Shown: positions 28,918-40,170 of the stretch, one piece after another
Position numbering within the stretch: position 1 is the first letter of the stretch
How the letters are laid out: every line of letters starts with the position of its first letter
Source of the DNA: a virus
Taxonomy: Duplodnaviria > Caudoviricetes
Length of the DNA stretch: 64,000 nt
Reading direction: 5' to 3' (one strand)
Virus record (IMG/VR): IMGVR_UViG_3300010965_000001
Coordinates: 64,001 to 128,000 of that record
Translations under genes and position numbers: made by a program
The notes under the pieces: model-generated
Database searches by the model: none
What the model was told of the DNA's origin: nothing
The model's input: only the letters and a program-made list of their open reading frames with translations

Positions 28918-31191
28918 TTATGCTCTTGCTACTTTTTGTGATGTGATTTCTTTTACTAATCTACCAAATTCTCTACCATCAATTATTAATGCAGTTTTCA
29001 TGTTACGAACATCAACTTGCAAATCTTGGATTGCCTTTATAACACCAGACATGTCTACATTGTTTGAACTGCCACCGTTTACTTTACCACCCAACGATGT
29101 TCCAGCAATTACGGAATCGTTCTTATCTAATTGGTATGTTCCCTTTGCGCCAGATACAACCAAACCACCGTCAGGAGCAATTTGAGCATCCTGCACTTTA
29201 TTATTAGCACTTAACATATAGTACGCGGCTCCACCAGCAGCAAGTGCGATACCTGCTGCGATACCAAGGGTCATTGCGGATGCACCAGTTACTGCTGCAA
29301 CGGCTGCGGAAATCTGTGCGGCTGCGGCAGCCCAAAGTAATCCGACTTGTGTAACCAAATGTCCAGAAGTAATAGCATTCCACAATGCAATTCCTTTTGA
29401 TGCGACAAATATTGCACCAAATCCAACCGCAATTGATGATACTATTTTTTCCCATACTGTAAATTGTTGTGTTCCACCTGTTAATACATCTACAAGTTTT
29501 ACAATGGGTCCAAGTATACCATTTACAACTACACCAGCAACTTGAATAATTTTACCAAGTATAGGACTAAGAATTTCTGCGATATTTGCAAACATATCAA
29601 CCAATGGTTCCAATGGAGTTAATAGATTGGTAACCATACTTACGAATTTTTCCTGTAATACATTTAACTTTTCTTGTGCTGCAACCTTTTTTGCTGCAGT
29701 GTATGCCGCCTTATCGTCCGTGACTCCCAACATGAATTTCTTCTGTTGCTCAGTATCCATGCCCTTTAATTTTTCTTCCATCTGAGCACGCGCTACACTA
29801 CCAAGTTTATTTAAATTTTCTTGAATCATCAAACTTCCAGCAAGTTCATCTCTATTCATTCCAACAGATTTTGCAATTGCTTCCTGTTGTATACGATTCA
29901 TCCGTGTAAAATCTCCAGCACTTCCAACCTGTGAGAGAATTTGTTTTGTTGCACCTGCTATATCATTTTGTAACGCCAATTCTCTTGCAAGTTCGAAGTT
30001 TAAATTCTTGCCCGTGAGAACGCTTGCTTCAAATTGTGCTACAAGTGATGATTCGATATTCAAAAGACCGTCTGCTATACCATTCATCTTGTCAAGTGAC
30101 ACACCAAGTTGTTTTGCGTATACAACCGCGTCTGCCAATGCTTTTGGATTCTTAGATAATGAAAGAAATGTTGCGGCACTCATTTTTGAAATGTCTGCCA
30201 TTATACCTTTGAGTGAGAACGTCACTCCAAGACGCATTTTGGATTCAATGTTCGATTTTGCCGCCATCTCTCCCATTGTCTTTTCACTCATACCGATGAA
30301 TTGCATCTGCGTTCCAAGTCGCGCCGCCTCTGCATTTGCCATTCCCAATTCTTTGGTTAAGGCAATTTGGTCTTTGACTAATTCAAGGGATTTGCCTTGG
30401 CTAAAATCAACTGATGCCCCAAATGCTTCTGAGAGTTGATTTGATGCTTCTATCATATTTTTAACTGTTTGGAATGTCGAGCCTATACCATTAGAAGTTC
30501 TTTCTATATCAACAAACGTGTTTCGTATTTCACGTGCTTCATTTCCAGATAACATTAAAGTTTTTTGCATCTCTGAAACTTGTTCGTTTTGCTCAAACAA
30601 TATTCCAGAGATTTTATCAAATGCACCCGTTAACAAAGATATAGTTTGTATCAATCCTCCAGCACCAATGGAATCCCTGACAAGTTTAACAGCACCAGTC
30701 ATTCCATTAATTTGTGTTATATTTTTTCCAAATAAAATACTCATTGAAGTAAGCGCATCCTGATGCTTATTGTACATAGCCAACTGTGCTTCTAATGTCA
30801 AGGTTAATTGTTTTTCTAAATCAACCATCTCACCAGTTACACCAAGACCAGACTCCATATTTTTAGTATTATCAAGTTGGACTTTGTATAATTTTTCCGC
30901 AGTTTTAAGTATGTTATTCTCAGATATATAATTTTCTTTTAATTCTTTTGTTTTATCTGAATATATCTTTTTTAATAGTCCTTGATTTTTTTGCATTTTT
31001 TCTTCCAATATCCGTGTCTTATCTTGGAATTGGTTAATCAGCATTACTTCATCTTTTATCGCATCATATAATTCTAATAGGCGCTGTAAGTCCTCTACCA
31101 TTTCTTTTGGCACATCCTTCATTTTTCCCATTGCGGTATTTAAGTCATCTATTTGTTTTTTGACTTCTTCAGGTGTTTGTGGTGCTGCCAT
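28918..31191 (-). CDS. tape measure protein
   Basis: Long A/G/L-rich helical protein; ESSL.AQFEAS.LTGK.LN.E.ARELAL core; follows the tail chaperone. Confidence 0.85.
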   Translation of the reverse strand: MAAPQTPEEVKKQIDDLNTAMGKMKDVPKEMVEDLQRLLELYDAIKDEVMLINQFQDKTRILEEKMQKNQGLLKKIYSDKTKELKENYISENNILKTAEKLYKVQLDNTKNMESGLGVTGEMVDLEKQLTLTLEAQLAMYNKHQDALTSMSILFGKNITQINGMTGAVKLVRDSIGAGGLIQTISLLTGAFDKISGILFEQNEQVSEMQKTLMLSGNEAREIRNTFVDIERTSNGIGSTFQTVKNMIEASNQLSEAFGASVDFSQGKSLELVKDQIALTKELGMANAEAARLGTQMQFIGMSEKTMGEMAAKSNIESKMRLGVTFSLKGIMADISKMSAATFLSLSKNPKALADAVVYAKQLGVSLDKMNGIADGLLNIESSLVAQFEASVLTGKNLNFELARELALQNDIAGATKQILSQVGSAGDFTRMNRIQQEAIAKSVGMNRDELAGSLMIQENLNKLGSVARAQMEEKLKGMDTEQQKKFMLGVTDDKAAYTAAKKVAAQEKLNVLQEKFVSMVTNLLTPLEPLVDMFANIAEILSPILGKIIQVAGVVVNGILGPIVKLVDVLTGGTQQFTVWEKIVSSIAVGFGAIFVASKGIALWNAITSGHLVTQVGLLWAAAAAQISAAVAAVTGASAMTLGIAAGIALAAGGAAYYMLSANNKVQDAQIAPDGGLVVSGAKGTYQLDKNDSVIAGTSLGGKVNGGSSNNVDMSGVIKAIQDLQVDVRNMKTALIIDGREFGRLVKEITSQKVARA

Positions 31192-31248
31192 ATTTATTCT
31201 CTATAATGAGTTGATGTTATATAGTATAAATATCAAAAAAACATAAAT

Positions 31249-31473
31249 TTATGTCTTTTTTTGAGAAAGGGGATGGACTAATTGCTTTTGCTGTGGTGGA
31301 GGGGCGTCACTATTCTTCTCTTTTTGAATGATTTCTTCCAATTGACGTAAATAAAAATTGCGAAGGTAAATGGGCATGGAATAGACTTCACTATGTGTGA
31401 ATCCTCCACGCCCATATAAACAGAGAGCAAATACGTCTTGATGTATTTGGGGTTTATTCTCTGCCCGAAGGCC
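31249..31473 (-). CDS. frameshift-accessed extension of the tail chaperone (gp51/gpT-like), absent from the ORF track
   Basis: 74-codon frame GLRAENKPQIHQDVFALCLYGRGGFTHSEVYSMPIYLRNFYLRQLEEII...KKT*. It starts right after a T7 run (31474-31480) and has an in-frame TAA four codons upstream with no start codon in between. Confidence 0.75.
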   Translation of the reverse strand, partial: GLRAENKPQIHQDVFALCLYGRGGFTHSEVYSMPIYLRNFYLRQLEEIIQKEKNSDAPPPQQKQLVHPLSQKKT

Positions 31474-32227
31474 AAAAAAAGTCGGTGGTTAAAGGTACTT
31501 GGATTGTACTTGATTTATTACATTCAGGACATTCAAGGTCATATGACATATCAACGTCAGGTGTTGAATGAAATAATGCTTTTCTAAGTGCTAATGAATC
31601 TTGTGCTAACATCTCTTCATTAACAAACTTATTTATTATATCTTGTTTGGTTTCGCCGTCGATTGATGTAATGATATTTCTAAAACGAATTGTCATCTCA
31701 CTATCTCTACCAGTCTGTGCAGAGATTTTCTTCATTGCTTTTGCTTCTGCATCGATGTTTCGTTCATCTGCGTGTGTTGCAAGTTTAAGAATAAGATTCT
31801 TCTTAGAAATAGGAAGTTGGAATGCAAACTGTTTGGAACCTTTTGTAAATATGGATAGGTCTACTTCTTTATTTTCAAACGAAGAAATATCCACCGTGTG
31901 TTGGCTGGATTCTCCGCATTTTGGACATACAATATTTACTTCATAATCTTTACCATATGCCAAAATTCTTGATGCTACTAAAATGGCGTTTTTATCACCG
32001 ATTAACAATTCACTGTAATTGATTGGAGTTACGATAAGACTCTGAAGTAACGTATCAATAACCACACCCTTTTGAATTAGATTTCTTGAAGTTAAGATGT
32101 CTTCTTCTCTTGCGGTCATATACTTAATTTCAATAGTACCGCTTGAAAGAGGATTTGTTGCTTCGTAAAAGTAACCCTGTGATGGTAATTCAATTGTTTC
32201 TGCGGGGAATTTGCTTTCTGTTGCCAT
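31454..32227 (-). CDS. tail/baseplate assembly chaperone (T4 gp26-like)
   Basis: FP.ETIELPSQG..Y, MTAREEDIL, GDKNAIL.ASRILAYG, two CPxC pairs, ends FFWPSGRE. Confidence 0.85.
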   Translation of the reverse strand: MATESKFPAETIELPSQGYFYEATNPLSSGTIEIKYMTAREEDILTSRNLIQKGVVIDTLLQSLIVTPINYSELLIGDKNAILVASRILAYGKDYEVNIVCPKCGESSQHTVDISSFENKEVDLSIFTKGSKQFAFQLPISKKNLILKLATHADERNIDAEAKAMKKISAQTGRDSEMTIRFRNIITSIDGETKQDIINKFVNEEMLAQDSLALRKALFHSTPDVDMSYDLECPECNKSSTIQVPLTTDFFWPSGRE

Positions 32228-32281
32228 GTGTAGCTCCTTTTGTATGTTAGTAACTGTATTTAATATAAATATCTACAAAAT

Positions 32282-32310
32282 AAAAAAAGGGAGCATTTCT
32301 GCTCCCTTTT
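32282..32310 (-). terminator. intrinsic terminator (potentially bidirectional)
   Basis: A6-GGGAGCA-TTTC-TGCTCCC-T5; GAAA loop on the minus strand. Confidence 0.85.
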
Positions 32311-32332
32311 CATTGTCGATTTTTAGTTAAAT

Positions 32333-33373
32333 TTACTTCTTTTTACCTTCTAAACGGTCAATCATACTTTTGAGTTTACCATGTTCACCTTTACTCTTCA
32401 TTTTTTTGGCAATTTCTCTTAACATGTTTGCTTCACTGATTGTCACTTTTTTCTTTTTTGAGCCAATTCCTGCAGGTACACTTTTCTGTGTCTTCTGCAT
32501 CGGAGATTTTGCATGCTGACCACCATCTTTTGGAGGACACATACACCCATCCCATTCACCACATCCAGGGCATCTGTTAATTTCGCCCGCCTCTGCAACT
32601 TGTCCATATTTCTGCATCAATGAGTCCATTGCTTCTTCAAGTGATAATCCTGTTTCCATCAATTGTGAGAATTCGGGTGTACCTTGAATCTTCTGTTCGA
32701 TTTCTGATATGCGACTGTTTTCATCCATATCATTAATACCCTGACGCATCCAATCGAGGTTTTCTCCGCCGCGTTCACCACGTTGGTTGAATGTGTCCTT
32801 ATACCCACGTTTAAAACCACGACCTGCCTTGATTGAACGTCTGCCACCAGATGCAACAAGTTCTCCTTCATCATTCCAAGTATTACCTTCTTCATCGGTC
32901 CACTCTTCAGATTCTGCGATTGTTGCTGTATTCGATGTGCCAGCCATTTTCTTCTTTGAAATTGTGTTCTTGATTTGTTTTTCCTTTGCTGATAAGTAGT
33001 CTACTTCTTTTCTCGCAACATCCTTATCAATGGAATCTTCGTTTATAGTCTCTTCATGCTCTTCTGCTTCTTCTTCAGGTGTTTCCTCTTCCTCATGCTC
33101 AATGGATTCGGGTTGACCTTCACCAAAAAATTCCTCAACATGGTTAAGAAGTTCTTTTGCGGCTAAGATATGCGACTTAACCCACGCTTCGACATCTTCA
33201 TCGTCAGCATGTTTTGATGCATTGAGAGCCTGTTGTGCGATAGTCTCAAGGTCAGTCTTCATTTCACTCTGACTACCATCAACTTCCACATTATCATCTG
33301 ACTCTCCGCCCATCATCTTGCCGAACTCTTCTTTTATGATACGTTCTAAGTCCATCTTTGTGATTTTTTGCAT
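32333..33373 (-). CDS. acidic hypothetical protein, candidate head-internal protein
   Basis: Very E/D-rich; repeated (I/L/V)-x-E motifs (IIKE, INE, IAE, LME, VAE, ISE); GGAG RBS. Confidence 0.6.
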   Translation of the reverse strand: MQKITKMDLERIIKEEFGKMMGGESDDNVEVDGSQSEMKTDLETIAQQALNASKHADDEDVEAWVKSHILAAKELLNHVEEFFGEGQPESIEHEEEETPEEEAEEHEETINEDSIDKDVARKEVDYLSAKEKQIKNTISKKKMAGTSNTATIAESEEWTDEEGNTWNDEGELVASGGRRSIKAGRGFKRGYKDTFNQRGERGGENLDWMRQGINDMDENSRISEIEQKIQGTPEFSQLMETGLSLEEAMDSLMQKYGQVAEAGEINRCPGCGEWDGCMCPPKDGGQHAKSPMQKTQKSVPAGIGSKKKKVTISEANMLREIAKKMKSKGEHGKLKSMIDRLEGKKK

Positions 33374-33413: not shown

Positions 33414-33902
33414 TTAGAACTGCAAGATTGCGTAGTCAAAACGTAAGGTCATGTCGATTGTCATTGGGTCACCAACTGACCAATCAAGCGTTTGAAAGTT
33501 TGCTTCTTTAATGTATGCACCTTTCAATGTCCATTCTTCAACTTTATCACCCACGGGACCAATCATGTTAATTGTAACGTCTTTCTTATAGAAGTCACTA
33601 TAACCTTCACGTCCTGTAACTGACTCATGTGATAAACGAACCCATTCCATAACCGCCTGTGCTCCCGAAGGAACGATTGGGTCATACAGTGTGCATTTCA
33701 CATCATTCCACGTTACTCTACCTTTCAATTTGCGTTTAACGTTGATATGGTCTAATGTAATATCATCAGAAGTCCAAGTAGGTCTATCGACCGCTTTCAC
33801 CATGAATGAAGGGATTCCTTCGATATACATGATGAAACGATTTTTTACTTTTGGTTCAAACGGTGAAAACATAATTTCCGAGGGGTCAAGTATAGCGGCC
33901 AT
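33414..33902 (-). CDS. tail tube protein (gp19-like)
   Basis: FEPKVKNRF, YDPIVPSGAQAVMEW, YKKD.TI...GP.GDKVEEWTLKGA; downstream of the sheath gene. Confidence 0.92.
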   Translation of the reverse strand: MAAILDPSEIMFSPFEPKVKNRFIMYIEGIPSFMVKAVDRPTWTSDDITLDHINVKRKLKGRVTWNDVKCTLYDPIVPSGAQAVMEWVRLSHESVTGREGYSDFYKKDVTINMIGPVGDKVEEWTLKGAYIKEANFQTLDWSVGDPMTIDMTLRFDYAILQF

Positions 33903-33913
33903 TTTTAATCTCC

Positions 33914-34606
33914 TTAAATTGTTAATCTTATAAAAGTACAGTTCAATAAATTTTCAATCTCTTGCTGTCTTTTAAGGTCTTTTTCTTTATGTGACAGATG
34001 ACGTTTCTCATCAACTTCTATCACAACATTTTTTTCTCTGTCATATCCGTCAACCCAGTATCCCAATTTTTCTATATGATACTCTCCGCCATTTTCAGCA
34101 TGTTGAAAGTTATAACCATACTGCTTCCCACACTCTTCAATCAGAAGACATGCCTTTGGATTGTAATTCGGTGCCATACTATTCTGTCGCATCCATTCAC
34201 TTACCGCCAGTCGTTTCTTTCTTTTTGTTTCATCCGAATCTTTTTTACCTAATTTGATTTCTCTCATTTTAAGTTTAGATTCTTCTGTATGTGGTTTTCT
34301 AATCTGTTTAATTCTTGCTTCGCATAATTTCTTATGAGCTTCTTCGGAAATTTTACGGTCTACATTTATTTCACGCAATATCCGTTTTGTTTCCTCAGTA
34401 TGATGCTTACCTAACATACCTTGATGATTTTTTATATTATTTCTAACTTCATCAGTTTGATGTTTTCCGTAAAATGGATTATTTTCACCCAAGTTAGCAC
34501 ATACTTTGCATCTTGTGTTGTTCTGTGTGGCTCGAGCCAATACATATTTATCTCTATATACTTGCTCTACGCCACACTCTGGACAATTCTTTTTATATTC
34601 TATCAT
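33914..34606 (-). mobile_element. free-standing endonuclease: Zn finger + NUMOD3 repeats + Vsr/DUF559-like nuclease
   Basis: CPECG...CKVC; HTEETK/HTEESK repeats; YWVDGYDREKNVVIEVDEKRH. Start at 34606. Confidence 0.75.
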
Positions 34607-34641
34607 CTTATAACCTTTTATAAATATCATCCAACTAAAAA

Positions 34642-36975
34642 TTATGCAGGAAACGACGCCCCTGTCGGCAATACCACGAAGTCAAGAATAATGAATTCTG
34701 CGGTTCGTGTAGGTTGGAGATAAATCTGTCCAACCAATTGATTTCTGTCAATTACTTCTGCCGTATTATTCGTCTCGTCCATAACTACCTTGAAGGTTGT
34801 CAATCCACTCTTTGCTTGGATGTTCTCCAAGTATGGATTTACGATATTCAAGAAGCGTGCGCGTGTTGCCGCTGTATTCTGTTCGAATACTAAGTAACGT
34901 GCCGATGAAGCGATGAATTTCTTCACACGAATTAACAATCTGCGAACATTGATACGGTCAAGTGCGCTTGGTTTTGCCTGAAGTGTCTTCTGACCCCATG
35001 CGGCTACGCCTGTTCCAGGGAATGTAGCGATTGGGTTGATACGACCTCCATACAAATCATCACGTTCTGCGTGTGTTAAGCGTGTGTAGGTTTCGATAAC
35101 TTCCGTTAAACCACCTCTGTTAAGACCTGCAACTGCTGTCCACTCTGCACCAACTCTGTCGTTGAATGCGAACGCACCTGCCATAACAACTGATGGGGAA
35201 ACCCAAACAGGACGATTTAAGTTATCATCGTTAATCTTAACCCAAGGATAGTACGTACCTGAGTAGTTAGTATCCAACGATGCCACTGTTGCATTTGCTG
35301 ACAAGATTGAATCATCTATGTCAAATCCATCCATCACATAAAATACATCACCACGTTCCTCACAGATTGTCATCGCGTATGATGTTACTGCGCTATGCTG
35401 ACTGTGTTGAATTCCAGGAATAACCAGCATGTTAATGTCGATTTCGTCTGGGTTGGCGATTGTGTCAAGTGCTGCCTTGTATGTCTTTGTACCTGCAGTT
35501 CCTGCCGTGCTAATATCAAAACCAAACACGTTGGTTGATGTAATATCTTTTCCAGTTGCCTTGATGACGTGAGGTTTCATACCATCAAATCCACCTTGGA
35601 ATGGAACTGTGAATTTCAATTCTTTAATGCTTGTTGCAATCGTCACTACCGTTAACGCTGAACTCGTGCATGTTGACATTAAGAATGTGTTATTTGTCAT
35701 TGATACGAAGTCACTGTCAGTTACAGAATTAACCACGACAGGATTTACAAACTGCAAGTTACTGATTTTTGAGAAATCAAAACCGAAGTAAAGTCGTGTA
35801 TTCTGTGAACTATCACTTCCACTCAAATTCGATACGAAAGTTACAGGAGGAACGTTGTTGTTAAATGGTTTGTATAAGTTGTTAAAACCAAATGGATACT
35901 GTGTTGCGCTATATTGGTCATCTACGTCAAACATTTCAACATATACATAATTTGAAAGATTTGCATAATTTCCATTCGTAACAATCTTACCAGCATCAGT
36001 GAATAACAAATATCTATCACCAATTGCACGTGCGATATAATTTTTGCTATCTTTGTTTAAGTTAACACCTGTGAATGATTCAAGTACATTCAACTTCAAG
36101 TCTGTATCATCAAATGAACGAATTGCAACATCGAACGATGCGAAGTTTGTTCCCATTCCAGCATCACCAGCTGCGATGTCACTCTGTTTCACGTTCAATA
36201 TAGATGCTTTGAATTTTGCGTTTGCATCTGTACCATCTGAGAAGGTATGAAATCTGAAAAGTTTATTTCCACTTTGGTCTGTAATCCAAGGGGTCAATGC
36301 TTCTGTGAATCCGTACTTACCAAATGCAGAACCACTTACCGTATATGCGGAACCACTTGATACAGAGGCAGTGGTTGTGCTATAAATTGCACTTGTGTTT
36401 GTTTGGAAATTCAATGCGACATAAACGGGTTTCTTTCCGTTTGGTGAAGTTCCAAATACCTTCGTAATATAATCTGCCGCGGTTGGAGTCAATGAACATG
36501 AGAATGTTTGAGCTGGAACAGCTACACCAGACACCGTAAGTGCGAAACTTGTTCCACCAGTAAGTGTTCCGCTTGTTGACGTTGTTGAAAAGTCAAACGT
36601 TGACAGTGCTGAACACGATACCGTAGGTAACAACACTGCTGCCAATGTAGAAGTAACTGAACTACCACTGAGTGATAATGCAATTGGAGTAGTGAACGTG
36701 AACCCGCCGTTACCAAGTGTTCTCACAATCGTTGCCGAAGGTGCTCCACCACGTTCCAAATACGACTTCACCGTATAGGCGGTGTAATTGGTTGGGTCTT
36801 GAGTACCGAACTTACTTTCAAATTCAGAATACGAAGTCACTTGCGTAGGAACCATTGCAGGTCCAGTTACAGTTGGACCAACGACTGCTGCACCCAACTG
36901 TGCGATACCTGCAGGTAAAAATGATAAATCTTTTTCGCGGGTAAAAACCGCTGGACTTACAATGCGTTCTGCCAT
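34642..36975 (-). CDS. tail sheath protein (gp18-like)
   Basis: SPAVFTREKD, YYPWV, WTAVAGLNRG, WGQKTLQ..PSALDRINVRRLL, PTRTAEFI.LDF. Confidence 0.96.
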   Translation of the reverse strand: MAERIVSPAVFTREKDLSFLPAGIAQLGAAVVGPTVTGPAMVPTQVTSYSEFESKFGTQDPTNYTAYTVKSYLERGGAPSATIVRTLGNGGFTFTTPIALSLSGSSVTSTLAAVLLPTVSCSALSTFDFSTTSTSGTLTGGTSFALTVSGVAVPAQTFSCSLTPTAADYITKVFGTSPNGKKPVYVALNFQTNTSAIYSTTTASVSSGSAYTVSGSAFGKYGFTEALTPWITDQSGNKLFRFHTFSDGTDANAKFKASILNVKQSDIAAGDAGMGTNFASFDVAIRSFDDTDLKLNVLESFTGVNLNKDSKNYIARAIGDRYLLFTDAGKIVTNGNYANLSNYVYVEMFDVDDQYSATQYPFGFNNLYKPFNNNVPPVTFVSNLSGSDSSQNTRLYFGFDFSKISNLQFVNPVVVNSVTDSDFVSMTNNTFLMSTCTSSALTVVTIATSIKELKFTVPFQGGFDGMKPHVIKATGKDITSTNVFGFDISTAGTAGTKTYKAALDTIANPDEIDINMLVIPGIQHSQHSAVTSYAMTICEERGDVFYVMDGFDIDDSILSANATVASLDTNYSGTYYPWVKINDDNLNRPVWVSPSVVMAGAFAFNDRVGAEWTAVAGLNRGGLTEVIETYTRLTHAERDDLYGGRINPIATFPGTGVAAWGQKTLQAKPSALDRINVRRLLIRVKKFIASSARYLVFEQNTAATRARFLNIVNPYLENIQAKSGLTTFKVVMDETNNTAEVIDRNQLVGQIYLQPTRTAEFIILDFVVLPTGASFPA

Positions 36976-40083: not shown

Positions 40084-40170
40084 GATTTTCTCCTGTGATG
40101 GTTATTTAGATATAAATATCGGATTGTAGTTAAAAAGTGTTGCTTTATTTAAATTTATAACTAAAATTTA

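What the first reader, a model, noticed from the sequence alone, without database searches (positions are those of the whole stretch)
31249..31500. Hidden +1/-2 programmed frameshift joining the gp26-like chaperone to a gp51/gpT-like domain
Seen: the chaperone ends GAC TTT TTT TGG CCT (DFFWP). The +1 frame after the T7 run (31474-31480) reads FFGLRAENKPQIHQDVFALCLYGRGGFTHSEVYSMPIYLRNFYLRQLEE to TAA at 31249. That frame is closed by TAA four codons upstream and has no start codon before the conserved-looking block. Established: tail chaperones just upstream of tape measure genes use G/GT frameshifts (usually -1, -2 in Mu), and the F(T/S)xxE...MP..R..Y pattern recalls gpT/T4 gp51-type domains. 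Inference: products are 257 aa and about 325 aa, made by a non-canonical shift direction. The -1 frame (track ORF 31278-31475) is also open but looks non-protein-like.
Basis: partly seen in the sequence, partly recalled or inferred. Interest (0 to 1): 0.72.

Follow-up and report, generated by a model that had tools for sequence, protein, structure and literature searches.

The report
+1 frameshift in phage hub-chaperone gene
One tail-assembly gene of this 210-kb uncultured phage very probably makes a short and a long protein because some ribosomes slip forward one base on a run of seven U's. Phage T4 has a short and a long protein of the same family as two separate genes (26 and 51), and I found no published report of the slip.

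Summary
The 257-aa ORF (32227..31454, minus strand) is a T4 gp26/gp51-family protein (Pfam PF12322). It sits between the tail tube gene and a tape-measure-like gene. It carries TTT TTT T at 31480..31474. The +1 frame then runs 74 codons to TAA at 31249, with no start codon before its conserved block.

Comparison is decisive. In 64 distinct relatives the same ~70-aa extension follows the gene and is never in frame. It is +1 in most (minimal motif YTT_T GG). It is -1 in one nested clade, which has a canonical A_AAT_TTC heptamer. Distant Bacillus, Listeria and Xanthomonas phages do the same.

Natural single-ORF long forms also exist. Their junction (FFGI/IFGL) matches the predicted +1 junction FFGL without a gap. 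The two contigs I looked up carry a second, short paralog ending FFWP..., as T4 has gp26 and gp51.

The N-terminal ~90 residues of a modelled relative best match the three solved tail assembly chaperones (Z 5.9-6.4).

Best reading: a programmed +1 ribosomal slip of tRNA-Phe gives 257-aa and 325-aa forms. It is a lambda G/GT-type system in a different family and direction.

This scan already noted the -1 version in at least 65 other genomes. This window adds the +1 variant and a +1 to -1 switch. Homology of the extension to the gp51 C-terminus is only weakly supported.

The parts
31454..32227 (-). Frame-0 ORF, 257 aa: the short form. It is a T4 gp26/gp51-family hub-assembly chaperone with two CxxC pairs and ends ...DFFWPSGRE.
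   Evidence: Pfam PF12322 at E 2.8e-16, 60.3 bits against a cut-off of 24.5, covering residues 26-252 to the end of the profile. phrog_150 baseplate hub at E 6.9e-19. It is the only PF12322 match in the 210-kb genome.
31474..31480 (-). Slippery run TTT TTT T: two Phe codons plus the first base of TGG. This is the proposed site of the +1 slip of tRNA-Phe (UUU to UUU), after which GGC is read.
   Evidence: It is the only place in the 35-nt shift window where a P-site tRNA can re-pair at +1 (read). The run is invariant in 28 close relatives. Variants in other relatives keep YTT_T. It is the only in-frame TTT TTT T in the genome.
31489..31491 (-). TAA that closes the +1 frame upstream. With the frame-0 stop at 31454..31456 it bounds the shift window.
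   Evidence: In many relatives the +1 frame opens only 8 nt before TGG.
31249..31473 (-). +1-frame extension: 74 codons plus TAA. It is a conserved helical domain with consensus YRP.LH.QIF.L.Y.S.GGF....VY.MP.YLR.FY..KL.
   Evidence: A profile search found 1388 cluster representatives at E<=1e-3. There is no Pfam or PHROG match at significant level.
31450..31467 (-). Position of a covarying 7-bp hairpin seen in relatives, 6 nt after the T run. In this window only GGG/CCC remains. An alternative GCC-UUCG-GGC mini-hairpin lies at 31472..31463.
   Evidence: On alignment A3, 87% of cells are paired, 4 of 7 pairs show compensatory changes, and 0 of 500 shuffles reach the covariation score. Slid controls score far lower.
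32264..32273 (-). GATATTTATA promoter-like motif 37 nt upstream of the gene's ATG. An intrinsic terminator lies just upstream at 32311..32284.
31225..31234 (-). The same GATATTTATA motif, 15 nt after the extension's stop and upstream of the next gene. The extension therefore fills the whole gap between the frame-0 stop and the next promoter-like motif.
28918..31191 (-). 757-aa putative tape measure protein. It is long, rich in Ala, Leu and charged residues (helical by inference, not predicted here), and has a Gly/Ala-rich hydrophobic C-terminal third.
   Evidence: The translation was read and tblastn matches the gene downstream of the hub-chaperone gene in relatives L001, L014 and L066. The gene at that place is annotated as tape measure protein in immuto, LIS04 and HSE3; no similarity to those three genes was detected. 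There is no Pfam or PHROG match.
33414..33902 (-). Tail tube protein (T4 gp19-like).
   Evidence: phrog_4542 at E 2.3e-26.
34642..36975 (-). Tail sheath protein.
   Evidence: Pfam PF04984 and PF17482, and phrog_23 at E 1.5e-66.

Best explanation
The gene is the tail/hub assembly chaperone of a contractile-tailed phage and belongs to the T4 gp26/gp51 family. Most ribosomes read it in frame 0 and stop at 31454, giving a 257-aa short form. A fraction shift +1 on the U7 run: P-site tRNA-Phe re-pairs from UUU to the overlapping UUU, U 31474 is skipped, and GGC rather than UGG is decoded next. Those ribosomes continue for 74 more codons and give a 325-aa long form. The long form shares residues 1-251 with the short form and ends in a conserved three-helix domain. 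Both forms are needed, as with lambda gpG/gpGT. By analogy, the shared part would act on the tape measure and hub, and the extension would give the long form an extra contact. Shown here: the two frames, their conservation, the slippery site, and natural fused and split versions. Inferred: that the shift is ribosomal and +1, its efficiency, and the roles of the two forms.
For: 1. Family and place. The ORF matches PF12322 above the cut-off. The gene order is sheath, tube, this gene, tape-measure-like gene.
2. The extension is conserved and always out of frame. Among 80 IMG/VR relatives at 45-53% identity, 79 have it and none has it in frame 0. In 38 of 59 distinct junctions no start codon precedes the conserved block, and in many the +1 frame opens only 8 nt before TGG.
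3. The slippery motif follows the frame. +1 loci have TTT TTT TGG, TTT CTT TGG or TTC TTT TGG. The 12 -1 loci form one clade (support 100/100) nested inside the +1 clade. They have lost the T7 run (TTC TTC, or TTC TTT in two contigs) and have a canonical A_AAT_TTC heptamer.
4. Distant family members at 25-29% identity are also recoded. Listeria LIS04, Bacillus SP-15, B. cereus HSE3 and uncultured LR756508 use +1 at UUU_Y. Xanthomonas XacN1 uses -1 at U_UUU_UUU.
5. Natural single-ORF long forms exist (293-318 aa, PF12322 plus extension). The conceptual +1 product aligns to one of them over residues 9-319 at E 5e-51, with no gap at the junction FFGL/FFGI.
6. The two contigs looked up carry a second, short paralog ending SFFWP... 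immediately or one gene upstream. T4 likewise has gp26 (the PF12322 domain only) and gp51 (the domain plus 48 aa). This genome has only one PF12322 gene.
7. In an exhaustive search of 48,161 PDB chains, the top three matches to the long-form model are the three solved tail assembly chaperones. These are 3FGX (Z 6.4), 3KLU YqbN (Z 6.2) and HK97 gp13 2OB9 (Z 5.9), each over residues 1 to about 90. PMC9603447 names them as TACs.
8. Contigs from three studies show no indel in the run.
Against: There is no protein or ribosome-profiling evidence; everything is comparative. The A-site codon UGG is a sense codon, and the phage carries its own tRNA-Trp, tRNA-Phe and tRNA-Gly(GCC), so there is no obvious hungry codon. 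In-frame TTT TGG is not avoided elsewhere in the genome (16 against 3 TTC TGG), so UUU_UGG alone is probably not enough. The covarying downstream hairpin of relatives is degenerate in this window. Five relatives have an ATG in the +1 frame 14 nt before TGG. The structural Z scores of about 6 are modest by the tool's own caveat.
Confidence: 0.8

Rival explanations
1. A -2 ribosomal frameshift on the U7 run. tRNA-Phe slips back two bases, giving the same reading frame but one extra Phe (..DFFFGLR..).
For: On TTT TTT T a -2 re-pairing is as perfect as a +1 one.
Against: Relatives with TTT CTT TGG, TTC TTT TGG, TTT CTA and TTC TTT CGT cannot re-pair at -2 but can at +1. Natural in-frame long forms have FFG or IFG, which is the +1 spacing.
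Confidence: 0.05
2. Transcriptional slippage. RNA polymerase drops one U, or adds two, on the T7 run, so a subset of mRNAs encodes the long form in frame.
For: A homopolymer of 7 is at the low end of what can slip. The T7 run is invariant in most close relatives.
Against: Recoding persists in relatives whose run is only T3 or T4, namely immuto, L050, L057, HSE3 and LR756508. The -1 clade uses a heptamer that is not a homopolymer. No RNA data were available to test this directly.
Confidence: 0.06
3. The extension is a separate small protein, started independently or by termination-reinitiation, and is not fused to the chaperone.
For: Gene callers list it as a separate small ORF in most of the top 150 cluster representatives and in GenBank records. 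Five relatives have an ATG at -14.
Against: This window and 37 other distinct junctions have no ATG/GTG/TTG before the conserved block. In many relatives the frame opens only 8 nt before TGG. The slippery motif co-varies with the frame. Natural in-frame fusions have the predicted junction.
Confidence: 0.04
4. An artefact or decay: an assembly indel in the homopolymer, or a broken gene.
For: Homopolymers are error-prone.
Against: The same frame offset occurs in more than 50 independent assemblies and four cultured-phage genomes, including ones without a homopolymer. Contigs of three studies agree. No relative has the two parts in frame at this motif.
Confidence: 0.02

Closest known systems
Lambda gpG/gpGT, HK97 gp12/gp13 and other tail assembly chaperones with a conserved programmed frameshift (Xu, Hendrix and Duda 2004, Mol Cell 16:11; listed as reference 38 of PMC9024508)
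   Same: The gene sits between the tail tube and tape measure genes. It gives two products that share an N-terminus, and the long one is made by a shift near the end of the short ORF. The N-terminal ~90 residues of this family model onto HK97 gp13 (2OB9, Z 5.9), YqbN (Z 6.2) and 3FGX (Z 6.4), the top three hits of 48,161 chains.
   Different: The direction here is +1, not -1. The protein is about twice as long, with a Zn-ribbon-containing domain, and belongs to Pfam PF12322. No TAC Pfam family matched. Similarity of the extension to the T domain was not tested.
Bacteriophage T4 gp26 (208 aa) and gp51 (249 aa), hub assembly chaperones (Leiman et al. 2010, PMC3004832, Table 2)
   Same: They belong to the same Pfam family. 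gp26 is the bare domain and gp51 is the domain plus a 48-aa C-terminal tail. This parallels the short and long forms here and the two-paralog contigs L090 and L091.
   Different: T4 uses two genes and no recoding. Sequence similarity of the gp51 tail (newer Pfam PF28602) to this extension is weak: E 0.005 and probability 7%, and nothing with smaller profiles.
The +1 frameshift of E. coli prfB (CUU_UGA_C); from established knowledge, not checked here
   Same: A P-site tRNA re-pairs one base forward on YUU_U. The variant TTT CTT TGG in immuto and L050 has the same CUU_U.
   Different: The A-site codon is a sense codon (UGG), not a stop. No Shine-Dalgarno-like element lies upstream in this window. 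A downstream hairpin is seen in relatives instead.
-1 frameshifts in the same gene family noted earlier by this scan (U_UUU_UUC, at least 65 other genomes; AI notes)
   Same: The family, the place in the genome, the two-form logic and the parallel with T4 gp26/gp51 are the same.
   Different: This lineage shifts +1. One clade within it has switched to -1 using a different heptamer (A_AAU_UUC), one codon upstream.

Membership tests
Pfam PF12322 T4_baseplate (T4 gp26/gp51 hub assembly proteins) | Profile match above the curated gathering score | tested here: met
   60.3 bits against a cut-off of 24.5, E 2.8e-16, profile positions 8-219 of 219. T4 gp26 and gp51 match the same profile end to end.
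Pfam PF12322 T4_baseplate (T4 gp26/gp51 hub assembly proteins) | Required for hub or tail assembly but absent from, or substoichiometric in, the virion | not testable with these tools
   This needs genetics and proteomics. PMC3004832 lists gp26 and gp51 as hub assembly chaperones.
T4 gp51-type long form (PF12322 domain plus C-terminal tail; newer Pfam PF28602) | C-terminal tail homologous to that of gp51 | tested here: inconclusive
   PF28602 is not in the local library. hhalign A1 against A2 gave no match. Larger profiles gave a collinear 51-column alignment at E 0.005, probability 7%. Both models show the same helix order: a short helix, a 14-15-residue helix, a 5-6-residue helix, then a long helix.
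Tail assembly chaperone G/GT-type recoding | Located between the major tail/tube gene and the tape measure gene | tested here: met
   The tube gene is at 33902..33414, this gene at 32227..31249, and the tape-measure-like gene at 31191..28918. The same order holds in immuto, LIS04, SP-15 and HSE3.
Tail assembly chaperone G/GT-type recoding | Overlapping second frame without its own start, reached through a conserved slippery site | tested here: met
Tail assembly chaperone G/GT-type recoding | Both the short and the frameshifted long protein are made | not testable with these tools
   No RNA or protein data are available. Indirect support comes from natural fused long forms beside short paralogs.
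Tail assembly chaperone G/GT-type recoding | TAC fold (HK97 gp13 / YqbN type) | tested here: inconclusive
   The top three of 48,161 chains are 3FGX, 3KLU and 2OB9, at Z 6.4, 6.2 and 5.9, rmsd 3.2-3.9 A over 76-82 residues. Z below 8 is modest by the tool's note, and the model is of a relative (P0138), not of this protein.
prfB-type +1 frameshift | In-frame stop codon in the A site and an upstream Shine-Dalgarno-like stimulator | tested here: not met
   The A-site codon is UGG. The upstream sequence ACC ACC GAC has no SD-like run.

The most novel reading that the evidence does not exclude
The Phe-Phe codons at the end of the PF12322 domain are an evolvable recoding hotspot across very different contractile-tailed phages. 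Four solutions appear: +1 at UUU_Y, -1 at U_UUU_UUY, -1 at A_AAU_UUC, or a gene duplication. The +1 version is a phage signal not described before: a P-site tRNA-Phe slip before a sense codon, helped by a covarying hairpin 6 nt downstream. This would also mean that T4's long-puzzling gp26 and gp51 are the split equivalent of the lambda G/GT chaperone pair.
Probability: 0.55. Interest if true: 0.75.

Novelty: new variant of a known kind. Interest (0 to 1): 0.62.

Why it matters
It would give a function and a logic to two T4 proteins (gp26, gp51) that have been called hub assembly chaperones or catalysts without a mechanism. They would be the short and long forms of a tail assembly chaperone.

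It would correct the annotation of a very common phage gene. The extension profile finds 1388 cluster representatives, and most of the best 150 are called as orphan small ORFs. None of the five annotated GenBank records I opened marks a frameshift.

It offers a natural series in which one gene family solves the same two-form problem by +1 slipping, -1 slipping or duplication, with a +1 to -1 switch inside one clade. That is useful material for understanding what sets frameshift direction and efficiency.

+1 frameshifts at a sense codon are rare in bacteria and phages.

Tried and rejected
- The extension alone has no significant Pfam or PHROG match.
- hhalign of the 43-sequence extension profile against 25 full-length gp51 homologs gave nothing. 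An HMM of the extension against T4 gp26 and gp51 was not significant.
- PF28602 could not be used because it is absent from the local library.
- Foldseek of the long-form model against AlphaFold DB Swiss-Prot and against the PDB gave no match at E<=0.001. The extension domain (residues 217-287) matched only generic helical pieces at Z<=5.6.
- No RNA holder was listed among the sequencing runs, and only contigs could be laid, not raw reads. Run-length heterogeneity and expression are therefore untested.
- The -1 ORF (P0003) gave weak tblastn matches. These are a shadow of the conserved +1 frame, and that frame is open in only 11 of 64 relatives.
- A hungry-codon explanation was considered and set aside. 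The phage encodes tRNA-Trp, tRNA-Phe and tRNA-Gly(GCC), and TTT TGG is not avoided elsewhere.
- Avoidance of TTT TTT T elsewhere in the genome is in the expected direction but not significant (Fisher p 0.18).
- Seven literature searches found no paper linking gp26, gp51 or PF12322 with a frameshift. The library lacks most subscription journals.
- I did not run a complex prediction, because no specific binding partner is claimed.

Full report
**What is in the sequence**

All features are on the minus strand. A 257-aa ORF runs from 32227 to 31454. Near its end it reads ACC GAC TTT TTT TGG CCT TCG GGC AGA GAA TAA, so the T7 run is at 31480..31474 and the stop at 31456..31454.

The +1 frame is closed by TAA at 31491..31489. 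From there it is open through the T run, and from GGC (31473) it continues for 74 codons to TAA at 31251..31249. It has no ATG, GTG or TTG before its conserved block.

A +1 shift on the run would give a 325-aa protein: residues 1-251 of the short form plus 74 more.

Two details need correction: the short protein ends four codons after DFFWP, and the upstream TAA is five codons before GGC.

**What the gene is**

- The short form matches Pfam PF12322 (T4_baseplate) at 60.3 bits against a cut-off of 24.5, right up to the Trp after the two Phe. It also matches phrog_150, baseplate hub.
- Upstream lie the tail sheath (36975..34642), a homing-endonuclease-like gene, the tail tube (33902..33414) and an unassigned 346-aa ORF.
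- Downstream lies a 757-aa protein rich in Ala, Leu and charged residues, with a Gly/Ala-rich hydrophobic C-terminal part. It matches the gene that follows the hub-chaperone gene in relatives L001, L014 and L066. The gene at that place is annotated as tape measure in immuto, LIS04 and HSE3, though I detected no similarity to those three genes.
- The window is bases 64001-128000 of a 210,562-bp IMG/VR virus record. That record has only this one PF12322 gene.
- A GATATTTATA motif sits 37 nt before the gene's ATG. It recurs 15 nt after the extension's stop, ahead of the tape-measure-like gene. The extension therefore fills the entire gap between the frame-0 stop and the next promoter-like motif.

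**Comparative test**

A scan of IMG/VR with the short form returned 80 loci at 45-53% identity.

- In 79 of them tblastn finds the extension peptide just downstream (E 1e-7 to 1e-19). It is never in frame 0. It is at +1 in most and at -1 in the rest.
- Across 64 distinct loci the extension frame has no stop in the 50 codons after the frame-0 stop. The other two frames are open in 11 of 64 and 0 of 64.
- In 38 of 59 distinct junctions there is no start codon in the extension frame before the conserved block. In many, that frame opens only 8 nt before TGG.

The slippery motif follows the frame.

- +1 loci read TTT TTT TGG CCT, with variants TTT CTT TGG and TTC TTT TGG.
- All -1 loci have lost the T7 run (TTC TTC, or TTC TTT in two contigs). 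They have the canonical X_XXY_YYZ heptamer A_AAT_TTC one codon upstream.
- On a maximum-likelihood tree the 12 -1 rows form one clade (support 100/100) nested inside the +1 clade. This indicates one switch of direction within the lineage.

**More distant relatives**

tblastn against GenBank phages found family members at 25-47% identity.

| Phage | Site | Frame of extension |
|---|---|---|
| Microcystis phage Mel-JY01 | TTT TTT TGG | +1 |
| Flavobacterium phage immuto | TTT CTT TGG | +1 |
| Uncultured LR756508 | TTT CTA | +1 |
| Listeria phage LIS04 | TTT TTT AGT | +1 |
| Bacillus phage SP-15 | TTT TTT CAC | +1 |
| B. cereus phage HSE3 | TTC TTT CGT | +1 |
| Xanthomonas jumbo phage XacN1 | GC T_TTT_TTT | -1 |

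These come; the extension HMM scored E 1e-23 to 6e-4.

The common denominator of the +1 sites is a UUU codon followed by U or C, so tRNA-Phe can re-pair one base forward. A -2 slip or polymerase slippage cannot explain the sites with only T3 or T4. None of the five annotated records opened marks a frameshift. The stretch is either blank or called as a small hypothetical ORF.

**Natural fused and split versions**

A profile of 43 extension peptides was searched against 1.84 billion cluster representatives. It found 1388 hits at E<=1e-3.

- Most of the best 150 are 56-130 aa, that is, the extension frame called as an orphan ORF.
- Seven are 293-318-aa single ORFs that match PF12322 over residues up to about 225 and carry the extension in frame.
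- Their junctions (SIFGLSAENK, SFFGITPQYKP) match the predicted +1 junction here (DFFGLRAENKP).
- The conceptual 325-aa product aligns to P0138 over residues 9-319 at E 5e-51, with no gap at the junction.
- The contigs of two such long forms carry a second PF12322 gene upstream (immediately upstream in L090, one gene away in L091). It has no extension and ends SFFWPSLGEIN or SFFWPDAGV, like the frame-0 end here.
- T4 shows the same pair. gp26 (208 aa) is the bare domain, and gp51 (249 aa) is the domain plus a 48-aa tail.

The family therefore always provides a short and a long form, by +1 slipping, -1 slipping or two genes.

**Is the extension the gp51 tail?**

This is only weakly supported.

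- Small profiles gave nothing.
- Larger profiles gave a collinear 51-column hhalign match at E 0.005, probability 7%.
- AlphaFold models of a natural long form (pLDDT 88.6) and of a gp51 homolog (pLDDT 91.3) have the same order of C-terminal helices.

I treat the parallel with gp51 as one of architecture, and homology of the tails as open.

**Fold**

An exhaustive structural search of 48,161 PDB representatives was run with the long-form model. The three best matches were 3FGX (Z 6.4), 3KLU YqbN (Z 6.2) and 2OB9 HK97 gp13 (Z 5.9). Each covers model residues 1 to about 90, with rmsd 3.2-3.9 A over 76-82 residues.

PMC9603447 groups these three as phage tail assembly chaperones. The Z scores are modest and the model is of a relative. 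Even so, the fact that the top three are all tail assembly chaperones supports the view that PF12322 proteins are such chaperones with added domains.

**Mechanism**

Within the 35-nt shift window only the T run lets a P-site tRNA re-pair at +1.

In 28 close relatives a 7-bp hairpin starts 6 nt after the run.
- 87% of cells are paired.
- 4 of 7 pairs have compensatory changes, some of which cost amino-acid changes in the extension.
- 0 of 500 shuffles reach the covariation score, and slid controls are far lower.

In this window the hairpin is degenerate. Only GGG/CCC, or a GCC-UUCG-GGC mini-hairpin, remains.

The phage encodes 34 tRNAs, including Phe(GAA), Trp(CCA) and Gly(GCC). In-frame TTT TGG is not avoided elsewhere (16 against 3). 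UUU_UGG alone is therefore probably not sufficient. The doubled UUU may matter, because in-frame TTT TTT T is unique to this gene among 151 long ORFs. What stimulates the slip here remains open.

**Quality of the DNA**

Contigs from the probable source sample, and from two other studies at 90-99% identity, cover the run without an indel. Only contigs were available, not raw reads, and no RNA runs.

**Novelty**

Seven searches of the held literature found no paper connecting gp26, gp51 or PF12322 with a frameshift.

This scan's own notes already describe the -1 version (U_UUU_UUC) in at least 65 other genomes, with the same T4 parallel. I read those notes only after reaching the same view. What this window adds:
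- the +1 direction;
- the +1 to -1 switch inside one clade;
- natural long forms whose junction confirms the +1 product;
- the match to the tail-assembly-chaperone fold.

It is a new variant of a known kind, the frameshift of tail assembly chaperones.

Noticed in passing
window 33914-34630 (-): A 238-aa homing-endonuclease-like gene lies between the sheath and tube genes. It matches the NUMOD3 motif (E 1.5e-10), phrog_314, and weakly DUF559. Relatives have the tube gene directly after the sheath gene.
   Followed up: no
window 32333-33373 (-): A 346-aa ORF between the tube gene and the hub-chaperone gene has no Pfam or PHROG match. tblastn found no counterpart in the 12 relatives' loci searched, and where the tube gene matched it lies directly upstream of the hub-chaperone gene. 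An intrinsic terminator follows it at 32311..32284.
   Followed up: partly
window, 9 exact copies, e.g. 32264-32273, 31225-31234, 34619-34628, 40111-40120 (-): The motif GATATTTATA occurs 24 times with at most 1 mismatch, against 10.3 expected; 0 of 100 shuffles reach that count. The copies are mostly on the gene strand, and the two checked (32264-32273, 31225-31234) lie just upstream of gene starts. It looks like this phage's (late?) promoter element.
   Followed up: partly
G000:C1:170373-189916 (outside the window): The phage genome carries a block of 34 tRNA genes and a tmRNA gene (tag AEEKSSFTFDDAMAFIMGEAVNAEYAYAA), all on the minus strand.
   Followed up: no
whole genome G000: Phe codon choice depends on the next base. 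TTT is 47% of Phe codons before a T-starting codon but 59% before others. Of 25 Phe-Phe pairs followed by T, only one is TTT TTT T. This looks like general avoidance of long in-frame T runs.
   Followed up: partly
L007, L013, L021, L023, L038 (14 nt before TGG): One sub-clade of relatives has an ATG in the +1 frame just upstream of the T run (A ATG TYG AGT TTT TTT GGC). The extension could there also be started on its own.
   Followed up: no
L091:2500-2850: In one two-paralog contig a 116-aa Cys-rich ORF (faint DUF7487) is inserted between the short and the long PF12322 genes.
   Followed up: no
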